Assembly (NCBI GenBank): GCA_035503615.1 | Contig: DATJTI010000031.1 | Span: forward strand, 27,507-91,506 | Length of the DNA stretch: 64,000 nt | DNA from: Stellaceae bacterium | Lineage (GTDB): Bacteria > Pseudomonadota > Alphaproteobacteria > ATCC43930 > CGMCC-115725 | Direction of reading: 5' to 3' | Part shown: positions 2,961 to 49,616 of the stretch, in pieces | Layout: every line of letters begins with the position of its first letter | Position numbering within the stretch: the first letter of the stretch is position 1 | Notes under the pieces: generated by a model | The model's database searches: none | Told to the model about the DNA's origin: nothing | Seen by the model: the letters and a program-made list of their open reading frames with translations, nothing else | Translations under genes and position numbers: made by a program

Positions 2961-3011
2961 CGGCCTACCCCGCCGCTCGCCGGCGCCGGCCCGCCAGCAG
3001 CCGGCCCGCCA

Positions 3012-4124
3012 TCAATGGATCATCTGCAGCTGCGCCTTGCTCAGCGCCGCGATCTCCGGCGGCAGGGCGACAAAATTGACCGCCGTCATGTAGTGCGGCG
3101 CGTTGCCGCCATCGCGGCTGATCGCCCATTCGAGAAACCCTTTGACGGCCGCCGCGATTTCGGGGCTCGGCTGCTGCGCTTTGACGATTGCGTATTCATA
3201 GTTGATGATCGGGTAGGATTCGTCGCCAGGCGCGAAGATCAGGCTGAGGCGCTCGTCCTTCGGCGTCTTGGCGGCAGTCGCGTGCACCGCCGCCTCGACC
3301 GTCTGGTCGCTCGCCAACACGAATTTGCCCGCGCGATTTTTCAGCATCGCCTCGCCCAGCCCCGCCGCCTCGATCGCCTTTTTGAAGCTGATGCCGATAT
3401 AGGCGATCGAATAGGGGTTACCCTTCGCCGCATTGACCATCCCGGGATTGCCCTCGGCGCCGATCCCGCCCTGTACCGGTGGCCAGCTGATCGTCGTGCC
3501 GTAACCGGGATTTTGCATCCAGTGGGGGTCGCTGAACGACAAATATTGCGAGAAGATGAACGTGTCGCCGCTGCCGTCGGTGCGGTGCACCGGGATGATC
3601 GCCTGATGCGGCAAGGCCACCCCCGGATTCATCTCTTTCAGCATCGGATCATCCCAGAACTTGATCTTACCGCTGTAGATGCCGGCCAGCGCCGGACCGC
3701 TGAGCTTCAGATGCGTCTGGTTGAGACCCGGCAGGTTGTAGTTGATGATCTGCGAGGAGATCGCCAATGGAACATTCAGAACGCCTGGGGTCTTTTTCAG
3801 CTGCGCTGGGCTCATATAGGCGTCCGAGGCGCCGATTTGAGCGATGCCGGACGCCGCTTCCGAAATGCCGGTGCCGCTGCCGGTGCCCTGGGTCGTGATC
3901 TGCATTCCCGGGTGTGCCTTGACGTAATCCGGGACCCAAAGATTGAACAGCGGATAGAGCAGCGTCGAGCCGGTCTCCAGCAGATGGACCGACTGGGCGA
4001 GCGCAGCCCCGCCCGACAGGATCATCGCACACGCCACTGCCGCGAGGATACGCGGGGCAAAGCGGCGGCCGGCCGGCCGCAAGCTTGGTGGCGTGCTGCA
4101 ATGCCGCCCCCGAAAATTGCTCAA
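3012..4124 (-). CDS. pstS: Periplasmic phosphate-binding protein PstS
   Basis: TTG start preceded by a G-rich SD. The N-terminal signal is RRFAPRILAAVACAMILSGGAALAQ. PstS-like GTGSGTGISEAASGIAQIGASDAYM is present. This is the first gene of pstSCAB and lies downstream of the Pho boxes. Confidence 0.9.
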   Translation of the reverse strand: MSNFRGRHCSTPPSLRPAGRRFAPRILAAVACAMILSGGAALAQSVHLLETGSTLLYPLFNLWVPDYVKAHPGMQITTQGTGSGTGISEAASGIAQIGASDAYMSPAQLKKTPGVLNVPLAISSQIINYNLPGLNQTHLKLSGPALAGIYSGKIKFWDDPMLKEMNPGVALPHQAIIPVHRTDGSGDTFIFSQYLSFSDPHWMQNPGYGTTISWPPVQGGIGAEGNPGMVNAAKGNPYSIAYIGISFKKAIEAAGLGEAMLKNRAGKFVLASDQTVEAAVHATAAKTPKDERLSLIFAPGDESYPIINYEYAIVKAQQPSPEIAAAVKGFLEWAISRDGGNAPHYMTAVNFVALPPEIAALSKAQLQMIH

Positions 4125-5731: not shown

Positions 5732-7999
<2,268 letters not shown>

Positions 8000-45244: not shown

Positions 45245-45477
45245 TCCGGGTCGAGCTTTGGCGAGAGCGGGTTTGACCGTGCCGCACTTTCCTGTTACCC
45301 AGGCGGCCGATCGGGGTTCGGCGCGTCAACCGGGGGGTTGGCCACGCGTCGCGAGAGGAAATCAGGCAGTCGGGTGTAACCAAGGCGCGGCTTTACGTCG
45401 GTCGTGCCTAGCTGCGCCCGGCCGCCATTGACAACGAGGCGGGGTTTCGGCCGGTCATCGACAACGAGGCGGAATTG

Positions 45478-45888
45478 ATGTCGCTGCGAGAGAAATATCG
45501 AGGGGTTCTGTCGGGCATGGTTCCGCTCGGAGTGGCTGGTGTTGCGCTGCTGCTCGGCACCGCCGCACCCGCTGCCGCAGACCAGGAGATGAGTGCAGCA
45601 TCGGTGCGCGAAACTGCTTCGGTTCCGGTCTCGGCACGTCTCGCTGCCATTCGCGACGCCGTTTCCGATGTCGGCAGGACCGCAGCGAACTCGGCCGCAG
45701 CAAACTCGGCCGCAGCAAACTCGGATGAAGGGGCGACCCGGCTCGCCTGGTGGGCATGGCGCAATGGTGGCGGTGGCTGGCGCAATGGCGGTGGCGCCTG
45801 GGGCAATGGCGGTGCCCGTGCCTGGGGCAATGGCGGTGCCCGTGCCTGGGGCAATGGCGGCTGGCACAATTATTGGCGAAATTTCTGA
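45478..45888 (+). CDS. Precursor peptide A1: signal-peptide-bearing Trp/Asn/Gly-repeat protein (rSAM-associated Gly-rich-repeat, GrrA/OscA-like)
   Basis: 136 aa. GAGGCGG lies 6 nt before the ATG. The product has an n-h-c signal-like N-terminus, the leader box RLAAIRDAVSDV, and the core WWAWRNGGGGWRNGGGAWGNGGARAWGNGGARAWGNGGWHNYWRNF with 7 W-x-N triads. A paralog and an rSAM/SPASM gene lie directly downstream. Confidence 0.8.
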   Translation: MSLREKYRGVLSGMVPLGVAGVALLLGTAAPAAADQEMSAASVRETASVPVSARLAAIRDAVSDVGRTAANSAAANSAAANSDEGATRLAWWAWRNGGGGWRNGGGAWGNGGARAWGNGGARAWGNGGWHNYWRNF

Positions 45889-46045: not shown

Positions 46046-46426
46046 ATGTCGCTGCGGCAGAAGTATCTGGAGATCCTGTCGGCGATTGTGCCGGCCGGGG
46101 TGGTTGGCGTCTCGCTGCTGCTCGGCACGACGGCGCCTGGCGCTGCCAGCGAGGAGCCGGCTGCTGCCGAGCCTCTGGCCTCGCATCAAATGCGGGTGGC
46201 CGAGCGCCTCGCGGCGATCCGCGACGCGGTGTCGGATGTGGCCGCGAATGCCGCGGCCAAGGCTGGTGATGCTGCTGAGCCCGACAGCAAGGACCTGCGG
46301 CTCGCCTGGGGCAATTGGTGGCGCAACGGCGGCTGGGGCTATCGGCCGTGGGGCGGCTGGGGCTGGCCAAACTGGAACAATTGGCACAACTGGCACAATT
46401 GGAACAACTGGTGGCGGAACTGGTAG
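46046..46426 (+). CDS. Precursor peptide A2: paralog of A1 with an extremely Trp-rich core
   Basis: 126 aa with the same MSLR.KY start, signal-like segment and RLAAIRDAVSDV box. Between the paralogs, 8 of the 12 box codons differ, and all the differences are synonymous. The core is WGNWWRNGGWGYRPWGGWGWPNWNNWHNWHNWNNWWRNW, with 8 W-x-N triads. Confidence 0.82.
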   Translation: MSLRQKYLEILSAIVPAGVVGVSLLLGTTAPGAASEEPAAAEPLASHQMRVAERLAAIRDAVSDVAANAAAKAGDAAEPDSKDLRLAWGNWWRNGGWGYRPWGGWGWPNWNNWHNWHNWNNWWRNW

Positions 46427-46457
46427 GCGGGCGACCGCGCAAGGATGGGAATGCCCC

Positions 46458-47684
46458 GTGCCGGTGATTGACCTGCTGGTGGTCCAGCCGACCCCGTTCT
46501 GCAACATCGATTGCAAATATTGCTATCTGCCCGGCCGGAATTCAAAAGCGGTGGTGACGCCACAGACCCTCTGCAACCTGTTTACGCAGGTCTTCGCCTC
46601 GGGCTGGCTCGATGACCGGCTGTCGGTGGTGTGGCATGCCGGCGAGCCGATGGTGCTGCCGATCTCGTTCTACCGCGAGGCCTTCGCCATGATCGAGGCC
46701 CTGCGCCCGCGTGACGTGACGGTGGTCCACTCGTTCCAGACCAACGGCACCTTGATCGACGAGGCGTGGTGCCGCTTTTTTGCCGAGGTGCCGGTCAGTC
46801 TCGGGGTCAGCATCGACGGCCCGCAACATCTGCACGACCGCAACCGGGTGACGCGCGCCGGCCGCGGCACCTTTGAGCGCACGATCGCCGGCATCCGATT
46901 GCTGCGCAGCCATGCCGTGCCGTTCCACGTGATCTCGGTGCTGTCATCGGCCAGCATGGCCGTCCCGGCAGAGATGTTCGACTTCTACGTCGCCGAAGGG
47001 ATCGAGGAGGTCTGCTTCAACGTCGAGGAAAGCGAGGGCGACCACGTCTCCGAAGCGTTCGGCGAGGAGGGCGTCGAGACCGCCTTTGCCCGGTTCCTGG
47101 GTGAATTCTGGCACCTGTCGGCGGCCTCGCCCGGCAAGATCACGTTTCTGCGCGAGATCGAGCAAGCGCTGCAGCAGGTGATCCGCCCGAAGGAAGCGGT
47201 GTTCCGCAACCAGCTGGTCGAGCCGTTCGCGATCACCAGCATGGATTGGGCCGGCAACATCTCGACCTTTTCACCCGAATTGCTCGGTCTGAAGAACCCG
47301 GCCTATGACGATTTCATCCTCGGCAACATCAATCACGACACTTTGACCGATCTGCCGCACCGCCCGGCTTTCGCCCGGATGCTCGCCGATATCGATGCCG
47401 GTGTGGCGATGTGCCGCGAGGCTTGCGAGTATTTTTCGGTGTGCGGCGGCGGCGAGCCGGTCAACAAGCTCGCCGAGAACGGCACCTTTGCCAGCACCGA
47501 GACGACCTATTGCCGGCTGACCCGAATGCGGGTGACCGATCTCGTGCTCAACGCGCTGGAGCGGGCGCCAGTTGCGGCGCTCGATCCGGCCAGGATCGTG
47601 CTGGCCGAGATCGTGCCGGCCGAGATCGTACACGACACGATGTCGGCGCGCCGACCGCCTGAGGGTGTCGGCGCCGGTGGATAA
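46458..47684 (+). CDS. Radical SAM/SPASM peptide maturase (cyclophane-forming GrrM/OscB-like)
   Basis: The rSAM motif is QPTPFCNIDCKYCYLP (CxxxCxxC). The C-terminal SPASM-type Cys cluster is CREACEYFSVCGGGEP...TYC. The start lies 31 nt after the A2 stop. GTG 46458 (or 46464) was chosen because the ORF-track start at 46086 overlaps A2 in another frame. Confidence 0.85.
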   Translation: MPVIDLLVVQPTPFCNIDCKYCYLPGRNSKAVVTPQTLCNLFTQVFASGWLDDRLSVVWHAGEPMVLPISFYREAFAMIEALRPRDVTVVHSFQTNGTLIDEAWCRFFAEVPVSLGVSIDGPQHLHDRNRVTRAGRGTFERTIAGIRLLRSHAVPFHVISVLSSASMAVPAEMFDFYVAEGIEEVCFNVEESEGDHVSEAFGEEGVETAFARFLGEFWHLSAASPGKITFLREIEQALQQVIRPKEAVFRNQLVEPFAITSMDWAGNISTFSPELLGLKNPAYDDFILGNINHDTLTDLPHRPAFARMLADIDAGVAMCREACEYFSVCGGGEPVNKLAENGTFASTETTYCRLTRMRVTDLVLNALERAPVAALDPARIVLAEIVPAEIVHDTMSARRPPEGVGAGG

Positions 47685-47707: not shown

Positions 47708-48460
47708 ATGACCAAAACGTTGCGCTGGCTGGGCTTGCTCGCGCTCGGTGCCGCTCTGCAGACCGGGTTTGCGACGCTGGCCTCGGCCCAGTCGGGCGCC
47801 GGCGCTCCCGCCAGCATGTCGGCCGCCAACGCCAGCGGCCCGGAAGAGGGCTATGGTCCCGGCGCCGACCAGTCGGGCTTTGCCGAGCCGACCGAGATCG
47901 AGCCATCGACCGAACTGCCGGTGCTCTATGTCACCAGCGTCGAGATCATGCGCACGCAGACCCAGCCGCAGCTCGACATCGTGCGGGTGACGGGCCTGAC
48001 CGGAGCCCAAGGGTGGAGTTCACCGGAACTGGTTCCGACGTTTGTCGGCAAGCCGCTCGACGGCATCCTCGATTTGCAGTTCATCGCGACAATGCCGCTG
48101 CAGACCGAGGAGGCGACCGGCTTTGTCCCGATCAGTGCGGTGTTCCCGCTCGAAGCCGGTCATGATTTCAAGGGAGTGCGGGTGCGGGCCTCCGAGAATG
48201 CGATCGAGGTTGACCAGATCCCCGGCACCAAATCGATCAAGATCAACGTCAGCGGCTGCAAGGACTGTGTCGGCAAGAAATTTGCCGAGCGCGGTCAGGC
48301 CGCCCCGGGGACCCCCGGTGTGGTGCGCCAGGAAGATCTACCGAAGACGCTGCGCTGGATCCCGGTCAACCACGGCATCCGGGGTATCACCCACAATCCG
48401 AACCGGCTCAATCTGATGCTCGGGGCGGACAACACGATTCTTGCTGCCTATTGGGAGTAG
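47708..48460 (+). CDS. Secreted protein with a C-terminal peptidase-inhibitor-I78-like domain
   Basis: The signal peptide is MTKTLRWLGLLALGAALQTGFATLASAQ. A low-complexity linker and a beta-rich middle region follow. The C-terminus, CKDCVGKKF......LPKTLRWIPVNHGIRGITHNPNRLNLMLGADNTILAAYWE, fits the I78 pattern (C..C.G...R.I.P....T.D....RLN...D....I). The gene starts 23 nt after the rSAM stop. Confidence 0.5.
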   Translation: MTKTLRWLGLLALGAALQTGFATLASAQSGAGAPASMSAANASGPEEGYGPGADQSGFAEPTEIEPSTELPVLYVTSVEIMRTQTQPQLDIVRVTGLTGAQGWSSPELVPTFVGKPLDGILDLQFIATMPLQTEEATGFVPISAVFPLEAGHDFKGVRVRASENAIEVDQIPGTKSIKINVSGCKDCVGKKFAERGQAAPGTPGVVRQEDLPKTLRWIPVNHGIRGITHNPNRLNLMLGADNTILAAYWE

Positions 48461-49167
48461 CTCGCGACGACCGGACTGCTCGGCTCGGCGGTGGCCAACC
48501 GTGTCGAGCGCCGGCGGCTGCGCGCCGTGCGCTCGGACTGGTGGTGCTCTGCGGAATCGCCGGGTCCGGCCTGATCGTTGCCGTCACGCTCGGCTTCCTC
48601 GCCGGAGGCACGGCGCAGGCCAGCTCGCTTGGTGTGGCAGGCTCGGATGGTGTGACAGGCTCGCTTGTCGTCACCAACAGGGTTGCGCTCGATCGGGTGG
48701 CGCGTGCCGTCCTGGAGGCCGAGTCGAGCGACGGTGCCGATCCCGCCATGTGGCGGCCCGATCCTGACGGCCCGCAGGGGCCGATGCAGGTTTCCGCCGC
48801 GGCCGCCGCCGATGTCGGCAGTGGCGATCGCTTCGACCCGGCCGAAAATTTGCTGCTCGGCCGCGCCTATCTGGCCCGGCTCTATCGGCACTATGCCAAT
48901 TGGGCCGACGCGGTCGCGGCTTATGATTGGGGTCCCGCCCACATGGATAACTGGATCGAAAGCGGCCGGCCGATCGGCAAGCTGCCGCAAGCGGTGGCGT
49001 TCTATCGCATGCGCGTGCTGACGGGTGCGACCGCTTCCGGCGGCCATTTCGGCGTGGTCGGGCATCTGCAGCCGCGCCGGTCGCTGGCCGACCGCCGTCA
49101 TCCGAGCCGAGACAGCATCGCCGTCGAACAGATCTACGCCGCAATCATGGCCAAGGGCCGGCCTTGA
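48451..49167 (+). CDS. Lytic transglycosylase (SLT) domain protein with an N-terminal membrane anchor
   Basis: The TM/signal anchor is LGLVVLCGIAGSGLIVAVTLGFLAGG. The SLT blocks are VLEAESS (catalytic Glu), GPQGPMQVS and AVAAYDWGP. The TTG start overlaps the upstream stop, so the start is uncertain. Confidence 0.65.
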   Translation: MGVARDDRTARLGGGQPCRAPAAARRALGLVVLCGIAGSGLIVAVTLGFLAGGTAQASSLGVAGSDGVTGSLVVTNRVALDRVARAVLEAESSDGADPAMWRPDPDGPQGPMQVSAAAAADVGSGDRFDPAENLLLGRAYLARLYRHYANWADAVAAYDWGPAHMDNWIESGRPIGKLPQAVAFYRMRVLTGATASGGHFGVVGHLQPRRSLADRRHPSRDSIAVEQIYAAIMAKGRP

Positions 49168-49262
49168 ACCGGGTTGCGTCGCGGCGGGATGATCGCGCGA
49201 GGATCGGCGGTGTCGGGTGTGCAAGCGACGATCCAGGATCCAGTCAGCACGCCGCCAGCCTG

Positions 49263-49616
49263 ATGATGGGGGAAGCGATGACCAGCCTGGTCAAGACACT
49301 GCGCTCGCTCGGCAACCGACTGCAGGCCGGTGCCAGCATATGCCAGCTTTATGGTGAACCGGTCGAACAGGGTGGCCGCACGATCGTCCCGGTCGCGCGG
49401 ATGCGCTACGGATTTGGCGCCGGTGGCGGCAGCAAACATGGCGGCGGCGGCGCGGGAATCGATTTTCGTCCGGTCGGGCTGATCGAGATCAGCGACGATG
49501 GCACCCGGTTCGTTCCGCTGCACCGGCCGCTGCCGCTGATCCTCGCCCTGCTCGGCGGGTTGCTGCTCGGCTATAATCTCGGCCGCCGCGCCGGTCCTCG
49601 TGATCGCGGGAGGTAA
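49263..49616 (+). CDS. GerW/YtfJ-family protein
   Basis: The product includes LYGEPVEQGGRTIVPVARMRYGFGAGGGSKHGGGGAGIDFRPVGLIEISDDGTRFVPL, which matches the YtfJ/GerW signature, and ends in a C-terminal TM segment. The start is ATG 49263 or 49278. Confidence 0.65.
   Translation: MMGEAMTSLVKTLRSLGNRLQAGASICQLYGEPVEQGGRTIVPVARMRYGFGAGGGSKHGGGGAGIDFRPVGLIEISDDGTRFVPLHRPLPLILALLGGLLLGYNLGRRAGPRDRGR

What the first reader, a model, noticed from the sequence alone, without database searches (positions are those of the whole stretch)
46307..46423. The A2 core is about one-third tryptophan, with five back-to-back W-x-N triads
Seen: in residues 88-126 of A2, 14 of 39 residues are Trp. From W107 to N121 the triads abut with no spacer (WPN WNN WHN WHN WNN), so each Asn is followed directly by the next Trp. 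A1 instead separates its triads with Gly-rich spacers (GGGG, GGGA, GGARA).

Inference: if all sites are crosslinked, A2 would form a contiguous ladder of three-residue macrocycles, a rigid and very hydrophobic rod. One enzyme would then have to process both spaced and contiguous motifs, or else only one paralog is the true substrate. Other aromatic triads (WGY, WGG, WGW) would test motif selectivity.
Basis: partly seen in the sequence, partly recalled or inferred. Interest (0 to 1): 0.7.

Follow-up and report, generated by a model that had tools for sequence, protein, structure and literature searches.

The report
Tryptophan-ladder precursor of a cyclophane peptide
This small gene encodes a peptide whose tail is one-third tryptophan, with five back-to-back Trp-x-Asn units, and it sits next to an enzyme family known to staple exactly that unit into tiny rings; it is therefore an unusual, widely conserved but uncharacterised variant of a known class of modified peptides (triceptides).

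Summary
A2 (window 46046-46426, +) ends in WGNWWRNGGWGYRPWGGWGWPNWNNWHNWHNWNNWWRNW. That is 14 Trp in 39 residues and 8 W-x-N motifs, five of them abutting (residues 107-121).

The gene 31 nt downstream (46458-47684) is a full-length GrrM/OscB radical SAM enzyme (TIGR04261, 414.7 bits against a cut-off of 310). The literature reports that this family joins Trp-C7 to Asn/Asp-Cβ at positions i and i+2. A1/A2/B is therefore a triceptide locus of a known kind.

- **The ladder is conserved.** A precursor sits directly upstream of the enzyme in 79 of 81 loci, mostly soil Stellaceae MAGs. Its longest abutting run is exactly five triads in 51 loci, six in 3 and thirteen in 1. Asn, Pro and stop codons vary synonymously.
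- **A2 is the constant partner.** The Gly-spaced A1 type is present in only 44 of 81 loci.
- **A third gene travels with the pair.** An exported 250-aa protein with no family match (47708-48460) co-occurs in 78 of 80 loci. No protease or transporter does, and the precursors carry signal-peptide-like N-termini.

Crosslinking of abutting triads is inferred, not shown. Two abutting rings are documented in xenorceptide A2. The "very hydrophobic" reading is not supported.

Verdict: new variant of a known kind, moderate interest.

The parts
45478..45888 (+). A1: 136-aa precursor paralog with 7 W-x-N motifs separated by Gly-rich spacers
   Evidence: Translation. It matches TIGR04260 (GrrA/OscA1) at 31 bits, exactly the curated cut-off. 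Its leader is 57% identical to that of A2. An A1-type gene is present in 44 of 81 loci. The spacers are built on 21/24/45-nt DNA repeats.
46046..46426 (+). A2: 126-aa precursor (ATG 46046, GAGG 8-11 nt upstream of the ATG, stop TAG 46424-46426)
   Evidence: Translation and upstream sequence. There are 755 homologs at E<=0.01. A precursor in this position, directly upstream of the enzyme, is present in 79 of 81 loci.
46046..46150 (+). A2 residues 1-35: signal-peptide-like N-terminus (R4, K6; hydrophobic 10-28; ...APGAAS)
   Evidence: The Kyte-Doolittle 19-residue mean reaches 2.08 at residues 10-28, and the block is highly conserved. No signal-peptide predictor was available, so export is an inference.
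46193..46240 (+). A2 residues 50-65: conserved leader helix RVAERLAAIRDAVSDV, the probable enzyme recognition element
   Evidence: R54, L55, A57, R59, A61 and S63 are invariant in 69 homologs. The segment RLAAIRDAVSDV is identical in A1. ARLETIRQSV occupies the same position in the Phaeobacter precursor. The recognition role is inferred.
46298..46423 (+). A2 core, residues 85-126 (LRLAWGNWWRN ... WWRNW), containing all 8 W-x-N motifs
46364..46408 (+). The ladder: five abutting W-x-N triads (WPN WNN WHN WHN WNN, residues 107-121)
   Evidence: W107, P108, N109, W110, N112, W113, N115, W116, N118, W119 and N121 are invariant in 69 homologs. The i+2 Asn codons split roughly evenly between AAC and AAT across 53 loci.
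46370..46411 (+). 9/18-nt DNA tandem repeat (AACTGGAAC / AACTGGAACAATTGGAAC) underlying the ladder
   Evidence: Tandem Repeats Finder. Expansion of the same 18-nt unit gives 13 triads in L026.
46458..47684 (+). GrrM/OscB-family radical SAM cyclophane synthase (408 aa from GTG 46458; AAGGA at 46441-46445)
   Evidence: TIGR04261 at 414.7 bits against a cut-off of 310, covering model positions 1-363 of 363. CX3CX2C motif present. Conserved Cys map. The nearest solved structures are anSME and ChlB.
47708..48460 (+). Conserved exported 250-aa partner protein of unknown function (signal peptide ...ATLASA|QS)
   Evidence: It co-occurs with the enzyme in 78 of 80 loci, including two Acidobacteriota loci. 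There are 1016 homologs, all named hypothetical or left unnamed. It has no Pfam, NCBIfam or PDB match. The AF2 model has pLDDT 51 and Foldseek found nothing significant.
48451..49167 (+). SLT-domain lytic transglycosylase, a looser neighbour
   Evidence: Pfam PF01464 at E=1.3e-9. Present downstream in only 36 of 80 loci, so membership in the system is doubtful.

Best explanation
A2 is a genuine, translated precursor peptide of a triceptide (three-residue cyclophane RiPP) system of the GrrA/GrrM (OscA/OscB) kind.

**Proposed mechanism.**
1. The precursor is made with a signal-peptide-like N-terminus, a conserved leader helix (RVAERLAAIRDAVSDV) and a Trp/Asn core.
2. The adjacent radical SAM enzyme binds the leader.
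3. At each W-x-N, the enzyme uses a 5'-deoxyadenosyl radical to abstract an H atom from the Asn β-carbon. The resulting radical adds to the indole (C7 in OscB). This gives a C-C bond and a loss of 2 Da per ring.
4. A2 offers 8 such sites (up to -16 Da), five of them abutting. The C-terminal 20 residues would become a chain of consecutive small rings, a stiff, β-strand-like, aromatic and polar segment ending in an aromatic residue.
5. The same enzyme also handles the Gly-spaced paralog A1 (7 sites).
6. The only gene that always travels with the precursor and enzyme encodes an exported protein, and no protease or transporter does. The modified peptide is therefore most likely exported through Sec and acts in the cell envelope or outside the cell, together with the 250-aa partner.

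**What is shown:** the sequence anatomy, the enzyme's family, conservation, selection and gene linkage.
**What is inferred:** the chemistry at each site, complete ladder formation, the leader's role, export and function.
For: **Enzyme.**
- Full-length TIGR04261 GrrM/OscB match well above the curated cut-off. The next-best families are all cyclophane or related SPASM maturases: AmcB, anSME, DynA, YhhB, DarW and DarE.
- CX3CX2C motif plus a conserved C-terminal CX3CX5C...C.
- It is the only radical SAM paralog in the window.

**Chemistry of the family.** OscB links Trp-C7 to Asn/Asp-Cβ at i, i+2 (PMC11002830).

**Precursor family.**
- A1 reaches the TIGR04260 cut-off.
- 11 of 69 close A2 homologs and 48 of 72 diverse relatives match TIGR04260.
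- JGI names some relatives "rSAM-associated Gly-rich repeat protein".

**Real gene under selection.**
- All 120 listed homologs keep ...GWPNW.NW.NW.NW.N..RNW.
- Trp and the i+2 Asn are invariant in 69 homologs, while the middle residue varies among N, H, R, P, S and G.
- Asn, Pro and stop codons vary synonymously across 53 loci.

**Linkage.**
- A precursor ends about 35 nt before the enzyme in 79 of 81 loci.
- The 250-aa exported protein follows in 78 of 80 loci, across two phyla.

**Feasibility of abutting rings.** Xenorceptide A2 (core WVN-A-FAR-WSK-SF) carries three rings, localised by MS and NMR, with FAR and WSK abutting (bioRxiv 10.1101/2024.12.16.628070).

**One enzyme, varied spacing.**
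- Core architectures form a continuum from GG-spaced through single-Gly-spaced to 10 and 13 abutting triads within one leader family.
- The title of Purushothaman et al. [quoted passage not shown]
Against: - No mass-spectrometric or structural data exist for any member of this subfamily. Everything about modification rests on homology.
- The window's A2 itself does not match the curated GrrA model, even at E<=10.
- The enzyme is only about 41-44% identical to annotated grrM genes of Nostoc and Phaeobacter. It also lacks two Cys that the Nostoc enzyme has (C269, C277) and has two others instead (C105, C186). The auxiliary-cluster arrangement, and possibly regiochemistry, could therefore differ.
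- Five consecutive strained rings have no documented precedent that I could find. The primary OscB papers were not available.
- Export is inferred only from hydrophobicity and an AxA-like site. The strong conservation of the N-terminal 35 residues is unusual for a plain signal peptide and may mean it is part of enzyme recognition instead.
- The function of the product is unknown.
Confidence: 0.72

Rival explanations
1. Partial ladder. A2 is a true substrate, but steric strain or enzyme register allows only some triads to be crosslinked, for example alternate triads or only the isolated WGN/WRN sites at residues 88, 92 and 123. The abutting W-x-N run would then be kept for another reason, such as aromatic stacking, binding or membrane-interface affinity.
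For: - Only two abutting rings are documented experimentally, in xenorceptide A2.
- Other triceptide synthases show hierarchical or incomplete cyclisation (MicB and ChlB, PMC12912966).
- The motif WxN-W-WRN recurs at both ends of the core (residues 88-94 and 119-125), so the flanks may be the primary sites.
Against: - Within the ladder it is precisely Trp and the i+2 Asn that are invariant, while the middle residue is free. That pattern is what per-triad crosslinking predicts. A stacking or interface role would not obviously require Asn at every third position.
- Ladder length is kept at five in 51 of 79 proximal precursors.
Confidence: 0.2
2. Different chemistry. The enzyme makes links other than, or in addition to, Trp-C7 to Asn-Cβ. 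Examples are another indole carbon, a DarE-like ether or fused bicycle at the conserved W-x-W-x-N (W105-G-W107-P-N109), or Trp-Trp links across triads.
For: - WGWPN has the same W-x-W-x-X topology as the darobactin core, and G106, W107, P108 and N109 are invariant.
- The enzyme has weak similarity to DynA, DarW and DarE.
- Its conserved Cys set differs from the Nostoc GrrM.
- Regiochemistry varies between related enzymes: C6 in XncB/SmcB and C7 in OscB, C5 in WprB.
Against: - The DarE, DarW and DynA scores (92-147 bits) are far below their cut-offs (450-650), while the GrrM score is above its own.
- The ladder itself contains no W-x-W motif.
Confidence: 0.06
3. A2 is not modified at all. It would be an exported or membrane-anchored Trp-rich peptide that merely shares ancestry with A1, and A1 would be the only substrate.
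For: The window's A2 gives no TIGR04260 hit, whereas A1 does.
Against: - The A2-type gene is the one that is always next to the enzyme, whereas A1 is missing from 37 of 81 loci.
- The leader helix is identical in A1 and A2.
- Relatives of A2 do match TIGR04260.
Confidence: 0.02

Closest known systems
OscA/OscB (GrrA/GrrM; TIGR04260/TIGR04261) triceptides, described from cyanobacteria (Nguyen et al. 2020 Nat Chem; Purushothaman et al. 2024 ACS Chem Biol, cited via PMC11002830 and PMC11851443)
   Same: - Same enzyme family, with a full-length match above the cut-off.
- Same repeated motif, Trp-x-Asn.
- Several motifs per precursor and several precursor paralogs per enzyme.
- The leader family overlaps.
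   Different: - The curated precursor family is a Gly-rich repeat ("Cyano_gly_rpt"). A2 replaces the Gly spacers with nothing, giving five abutting triads and 36% Trp, and it falls outside the curated model.
- The host is a soil alphaproteobacterium (Stellaceae), and the locus lies in a syntenic housekeeping neighbourhood, nuoN-birA-coaX-rnj-mce-tag.
- The auxiliary Cys pattern differs from the Nostoc enzyme.
- There is a conserved exported 250-aa partner. A Nostoc plasmid locus has no such gene, and its precursor lacks a signal-like N-terminus.
Xenorceptides (XyeA/XyeB; XncB, SmcB)
   Same: - Three-residue cyclophanes made by a related radical SAM/SPASM enzyme.
- Include a W-x-N ring.
- Include two abutting rings (FAR-WSK).
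- C-terminal aromatic residue.
- The rings hold a β-strand conformation.
   Different: - The XyeB model scores only 82 bits here against a cut-off of 450.
- The link is at Trp-C6.
- Only three rings in a 12-mer.
- A Gly-Gly leader with a dedicated protease and transporters, none of which are present here.
Dynobactin and darobactin (DynA, DarE), the BamA-targeting 'bamabactins'
   Same: - Dynobactin's first ring is a Trp-Asn C-C cyclophane.
- Peptides with a C-terminal aromatic residue act as β-strand mimics.
- DynA is the fourth-best NCBIfam match of the enzyme.
   Different: - Scores are far below the family cut-offs (147 against 450; 92 against 650).
- The products are 7-10-mers with one or two rings.
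- There is no evidence here for ether or C-N links, nor for antibiotic activity.
AmcB (NF041718) cyclophane-forming maturase
   Same: Second-best family match, aligned full length (302 bits).
   Different: Below its cut-off of 425. I did not examine its precursors.

Membership tests
GrrM/OscB cyclophane-forming radical SAM maturase (TIGR04261) | Full-length match to the curated model above its cut-off | tested here: met
   414.7 bits against a cut-off of 310. Residues 12-372 align to model positions 1-363 of 363.
GrrM/OscB cyclophane-forming radical SAM maturase (TIGR04261) | CX3CX2C radical SAM cluster motif | tested here: met
   CNIDCKYC. The motif is invariant in 77 aligned enzymes.
GrrM/OscB cyclophane-forming radical SAM maturase (TIGR04261) | SPASM-type C-terminal Cys set for auxiliary Fe-S clusters | tested here: inconclusive
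   A conserved CX3CX5C...X22...C (C319, C323, C329, C352) is enough for one auxiliary cluster. There is no CX2CX5CX3C. Two further conserved Cys (C105, C186) replace the C269/C277 pair of the Nostoc enzyme.
GrrM/OscB cyclophane-forming radical SAM maturase (TIGR04261) | Catalyses a Trp(C7)-Asn/Asp(Cβ) bond within an Ω-x-N motif | not testable with these tools
   Needs co-expression with MS/MS and NMR. The activity of the family is taken from PMC11002830.
GrrA/OscA1 precursor family (TIGR04260) | Match to the curated model at or above its cut-off of 31 bits | tested here: not met
   A2 gives no hit even at E<=10. A1 scores exactly 31 bits. 11 of 69 close A2 homologs and 48 of 72 diverse relatives match at E<=0.01. 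A2 is therefore a fringe relative and not a member by the curated test.
GrrA/OscA1 precursor family (TIGR04260) | Gly-rich repetitive C-terminal half | tested here: not met
   The last 39 residues of A2 are 36% Trp, 26% Asn and 18% Gly. Proximal precursors average 17% Gly, against 32% in A1-type.
GrrA/OscA1 precursor family (TIGR04260) | Encoded next to a GrrM-type radical SAM gene | tested here: met
   The A2 stop codon lies 31 nt before the enzyme's start. The same arrangement occurs in 79 of 81 loci.
Triceptides (three-residue cyclophane RiPPs) | Core with aromatic-x-X motifs, and a 3-CyFE radical SAM enzyme in the cluster | tested here: met
   8 W-x-N motifs in A2 and 7 in A1, plus the enzyme.
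Triceptides (three-residue cyclophane RiPPs) | Aromatic C(sp2) to Cβ(sp3) crosslink actually present in the product | not testable with these tools
   No product data are available.
Darobactin/dynobactin-type maturases (DarE NF038005, DynA NF041298) | Match above the curated cut-off | tested here: not met
   DarE scores 91.7 against a cut-off of 650. DynA scores 146.6 against 450.

The most novel reading that the evidence does not exclude
All abutting triads are crosslinked. The product would then be a poly-cyclophane ladder of five or more consecutive three-residue rings (up to 13 in L026), a stapled β-strand-like rod with no described counterpart. It would also not be a classical diffusible antibiotic. 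Instead it would be a Sec-exported, vertically inherited envelope factor of Stellaceae that works with the conserved 250-aa exported protein. Its conserved C-terminal aromatic residue and rigid strand might engage β-barrel assembly or outer-membrane proteins, in the way bamabactins mimic the OMP β-signal.
Probability: 0.2. Interest if true: 0.75.

Novelty: new variant of a known kind. Interest (0 to 1): 0.5.

Why it matters
Triceptide enzymes are attracting interest as tools for rigidifying peptides, and related cyclophane peptides (darobactin, dynobactin, xenorceptides) are leads against Gram-negative bacteria.

- **For enzymology.** A natural family with five or more rings packed with no spacer would set the density limit for this chemistry. 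It would show how one enzyme steps along a substrate in a three-residue register, and it would give a genetically encoded, length-tunable rigid rod. Nature already varies the ladder from 2 to 13 units by slippage of an 18-nt repeat.
- **For biology.** The system is found in most Stellaceae-like soil MAGs sampled here, in a housekeeping neighbourhood, with a signal-peptide-bearing precursor and an uncharacterised exported partner. That pattern hints at a physiological envelope role for a RiPP rather than chemical warfare.
- **For experiments.** Cultured Phaeobacter strains carry a three-triad version on a plasmid, so the question can be tested in the laboratory.

Tried and rejected
- **Wrong frame for A2.** My first translation started at 46047. 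Corrected to 46046.
- **Function of the 250-aa partner.** Pfam and NCBIfam gave nothing. A PDB profile search gave no hits at E<=10. AlphaFold2 with 49 homologs gave pLDDT 51, with only a β-rich domain at about residues 70-165 reaching 70-77. Foldseek against the PDB had a best E of 1.6. My impression that the C-terminus resembles the I78 inhibitor family got no tool support. Comparison with the exported protein next to the Phaeobacter precursor was inconclusive (BLASTP E=0.024; hhalign probability 0.5%).
- **Primary literature on OscB substrates.** Nguyen 2020, Purushothaman 2024 and Haft & Basu 2011 are not held. Term searches for TIGR04260, GrrM and OscA returned only unrelated papers. I therefore could not check whether abutting W-x-N motifs were already tested with OscB.
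- **Regulation.** No σ70-like promoter was found, and the only terminator-like site lies inside the enzyme gene. The A1-A2 spacer folds no better than shuffles (z = 0.59). Rfam finds only four tRNAs in the window.
- **Classical cyanobacterial GrrA sequences.** The profile search with the diverse alignment returned only proteobacterial-type relatives. The one Nostoc plasmid locus has a short, different precursor with WDN, WND and WGN.
- **\"Not a gene\" or repeat artefact.** Rejected because of conservation with synonymous change and an in-frame, Shine-Dalgarno-preceded ORF.

Full report
**1.

Window 46046-46426 (+) encodes a 126-aa protein preceded by GAGG. Residue 88 is nt 46307 and residue 126 ends at nt 46423, as the finding states.

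Residues 88-126 are WGNWWRNGGWGYRPWGGWGWPNWNNWHNWHNWNNWWRNW, with 14 Trp in 39 residues. Residues 107-121 are five abutting W-x-N triads. A2 has eight W-x-N motifs in all. A1 (45478-45888) has seven, separated by GGGG, GGGA and GGARA spacers.

With Trp at 1.6% in 13 neighbouring genes, P(>=14 of 39) is 8e-16. Shuffling the core's own residues gives a run of five or more in only 10 of 200,000 trials. At the DNA level the ladder is a 9/18-nt tandem repeat at 46370-46411.

**2. What sits next to it.**

The A2 stop codon lies 31 nt before the start of a 408-aa radical SAM protein (GTG 46458, with AAGGA upstream).

- It matches NCBIfam TIGR04261, [quoted passage not shown], over the whole model at 414.7 bits against a cut-off of 310.
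- The next matches are AmcB, anSME, DynA, YhhB, DarW and DarE, all below their cut-offs.
- It has the CX3CX2C motif and a conserved C-terminal CX3CX5C...C.
- Its nearest solved relatives are anSME and the triceptide synthase ChlB.
- It is the only such gene in the window.

According to a review of the primary work, OscB forms C-C links between Trp-C7 and the β-carbon of Asn or Asp at positions i and i+2 (PMC11002830). W-x-N is therefore the motif this enzyme family is known to cyclise.

**3. Is A2 a real member of the precursor family?**

- A1 reaches the curated GrrA/OscA1 model (TIGR04260) exactly at its cut-off. A2 does not match it at all.
- The two proteins share a 57%-identical leader, including the identical segment RLAAIRDAVSDV.
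- 11 of 69 close A2 homologs and 48 of 72 diverse relatives do match TIGR04260.
- JGI names some relatives "rSAM-associated Gly-rich repeat protein".

A2 is thus a divergent branch of the same leader family whose core has lost the Gly spacers.

**4. Conservation.**

- A search of 5.8 billion proteins found 755 relatives at E<=0.01. All 120 listed end in ...GWPNW.NW.NW.NW.N..RNW, with at least five abutting triads.
- In an alignment of 69 of them, every Trp and every i+2 Asn of the ladder is invariant. Across 53 loci the middle residue varies among N, H, R, P, S and G.
- Across the same 53 loci the i+2 Asn codons are split roughly evenly between AAC and AAT. The Pro uses all four codons and all three stop codons occur. 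This is the signature of selection on the protein, not on the DNA repeat.
- An exhaustive phmmer scan of 1.84 billion cluster representatives found 188 clusters at E<=0.001. Their cores range from GG-spaced, through single-Gly-spaced, to 10 abutting triads (P0343, P0377) and a His-rich form (P0365).

**5. Genomic survey.**

The enzyme retrieved 80 loci. Nearly all are soil MAGs labelled Stellaceae or Alphaproteobacteria, two are Acidobacteriota, and one is Hyphomicrobiales at 46% identity with no Trp-rich precursor upstream. Counting the window, that makes 81 loci.

- 79 of 81 loci have a precursor ending about 35 nt before the enzyme.
- Its longest abutting run is 1 in one locus, 2 in thirteen, 3 in eight, 4 in two, 5 in fifty-one, 6 in three and 13 in one.
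- The 13-triad case (L026) is an in-frame expansion of the 18-nt unit TGGAACAATTGGAACAAC.
- A second, A1-type Gly-spaced precursor lies about 500 nt further upstream in only 44 loci.

The contiguous type is the constant partner, and the spaced type is an optional extra that shares the leader and the C-terminal [WFY]W[RH]N[WF].

**6. A third component, and what is missing.**

The 250-aa protein encoded at 47708-48460 follows the enzyme in 78 of 80 loci, including the Acidobacteriota.

- It has a clear signal peptide and about 70 invariant residues.
- It has no match in Pfam, NCBIfam or the PDB.
- The structure model was poor and gave no fold match.

The SLT-domain gene after it is present in 36 loci only. 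No peptidase or transporter is linked. In about 50 loci the flanks are the housekeeping genes nuoN-birA-coaX-rnj-mce-tag. The system therefore looks vertically inherited in this lineage rather than a mobile antibiotic island.

A2 and its relatives begin with a conserved basic-hydrophobic-AxA-like segment (Kyte-Doolittle 2.08 over residues 10-28). My inference is Sec export after cytoplasmic modification. This is not shown.

**7. Can abutting triads be cyclised?**

- Direct evidence exists for two. Xenorceptide A2 has the core WVN-A-FAR-WSK-SF with three rings localised by MS and NMR, and FAR and WSK abut. The same preprint states that such rings constrain the peptide into a β-strand (bioRxiv 10.1101/2024.12.16.628070).
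- Annotated grrM loci in cultured bacteria also carry short abutting runs. These are WSNWNNWSN in Phaeobacter piscinae/inhibens plasmids, in a precursor with a signal-like N-terminus and an ARLETIRQSV helix, and WSDWHD in a Bacillus plasmid.
- Five or more in a row is beyond anything I could find described.

**8.

- The core is not "very hydrophobic". It is Trp/Asn/Gly/Arg, with a Kyte-Doolittle mean near -2.
- The WGY, WGG and WGW triads lie in the most variable, length-polymorphic stretch of the core. They are more likely a spacer than alternative sites.
- The exception is WGWPN, a conserved W-x-W-x-N arrangement. Its topology recalls darobactin and leaves a small chance of other chemistry.

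**9. Verdict.**

This is a triceptide locus of the GrrA/GrrM kind. Its principal precursor belongs to a large, conserved and so far unnamed subfamily with a spacer-free Trp-x-Asn ladder, and it is linked to an unknown exported protein.

- The chemistry is predicted with good confidence for isolated sites and moderate confidence for the full ladder.
- Function is unknown. An envelope-associated role is my best guess.
- It is a new variant of a known kind, of moderate interest, and readily testable by co-expression and mass spectrometry.

Noticed in passing
window 47708-48460: Exported 250-aa protein with no match in any family or structure library. About 70 residues are invariant, including a CxxC pair (C184, C187). 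It co-occurs with the enzyme in 78 of 80 loci across two phyla and is probably the real third gene of the system.
   Followed up: partly
L026:5817-5969 (precursor ending at 5967): The ladder has expanded to 13 abutting W-x-N triads through in-frame amplification of an 18-nt unit (TGGAACAATTGGAACAAC). Natural length polymorphism therefore arises by repeat slippage. An assembly artefact in this long-read MAG cannot be excluded.
   Followed up: partly
precursor cores of window and L001-L080: Asn codon choice depends on position. The middle-position Asn (followed by Asn) is AAC 180 times and AAT 19 times. The i+2 Asn followed by Trp is AAC 244 and AAT 310. The background in the neighbouring enzyme genes is 477:383. 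No explanation was tested.
   Followed up: no
window 46458-47684 (enzyme); L081 for comparison: The conserved Cys set is 15/19/22, 105/186 and 319/323/329/352. The Nostoc GrrM lacks the 105/186 pair but has C269/C277. There is no canonical CX2CX5CX3C SPASM motif. The auxiliary cluster arrangement may differ between clades.
   Followed up: partly
L082:3633-3977 (Phaeobacter piscinae plasmid pP18_a; same locus in three P. inhibens plasmids): A cultured, tractable host carries an unannotated ("hypothetical") precursor with a signal-like N-terminus and WSNWNNWSN, overlapping the start of an annotated grrM by 4 nt. It is preceded by another exported hypothetical protein (2974-3636).
   Followed up: partly
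window 46358-46372 (A2 residues 105-109, WGWPN): A conserved W-x-W-x-N arrangement with the same topology as the fused bicyclic core of darobactin (W-N-W-S-K). G106, W107, P108 and N109 are invariant in 69 homologs.
   Followed up: no
window 46412-46423 and the C-termini of all precursors: Nearly every precursor, A1- or A2-type, ends in [WFY]W[RH]N followed by a terminal Trp or Phe. A terminal aromatic residue is also a feature of darobactin, xenorceptides and (from my own knowledge) the OMP β-signal.
   Followed up: no
window 45427-45443 and 45457-45473: A direct repeat, CAT[T/C]GACAACGAGGCGG, occurs twice 30 nt apart just upstream of the A1 start. A related CGACGATGAGGTGG precedes A2. This may be a duplicated 5' UTR or ribosome-binding region, or an operator.
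   Followed up: no
window 49164-49616: A 150-aa protein matches the sporulation protein YtfJ family (PF09579, E=3.9e-10) in an alphaproteobacterium. It is present downstream in only 7 of 80 loci.
   Followed up: no
L075 and L076 (Acidobacteriota): The same three-gene unit (precursor, enzyme at 55% identity, 250-aa partner at 37-45% identity) occurs in another phylum. The core there is Gly-spaced and ends in PWHNWHNFWHNW. This suggests old ancestry or horizontal transfer of the whole unit.
   Followed up: no
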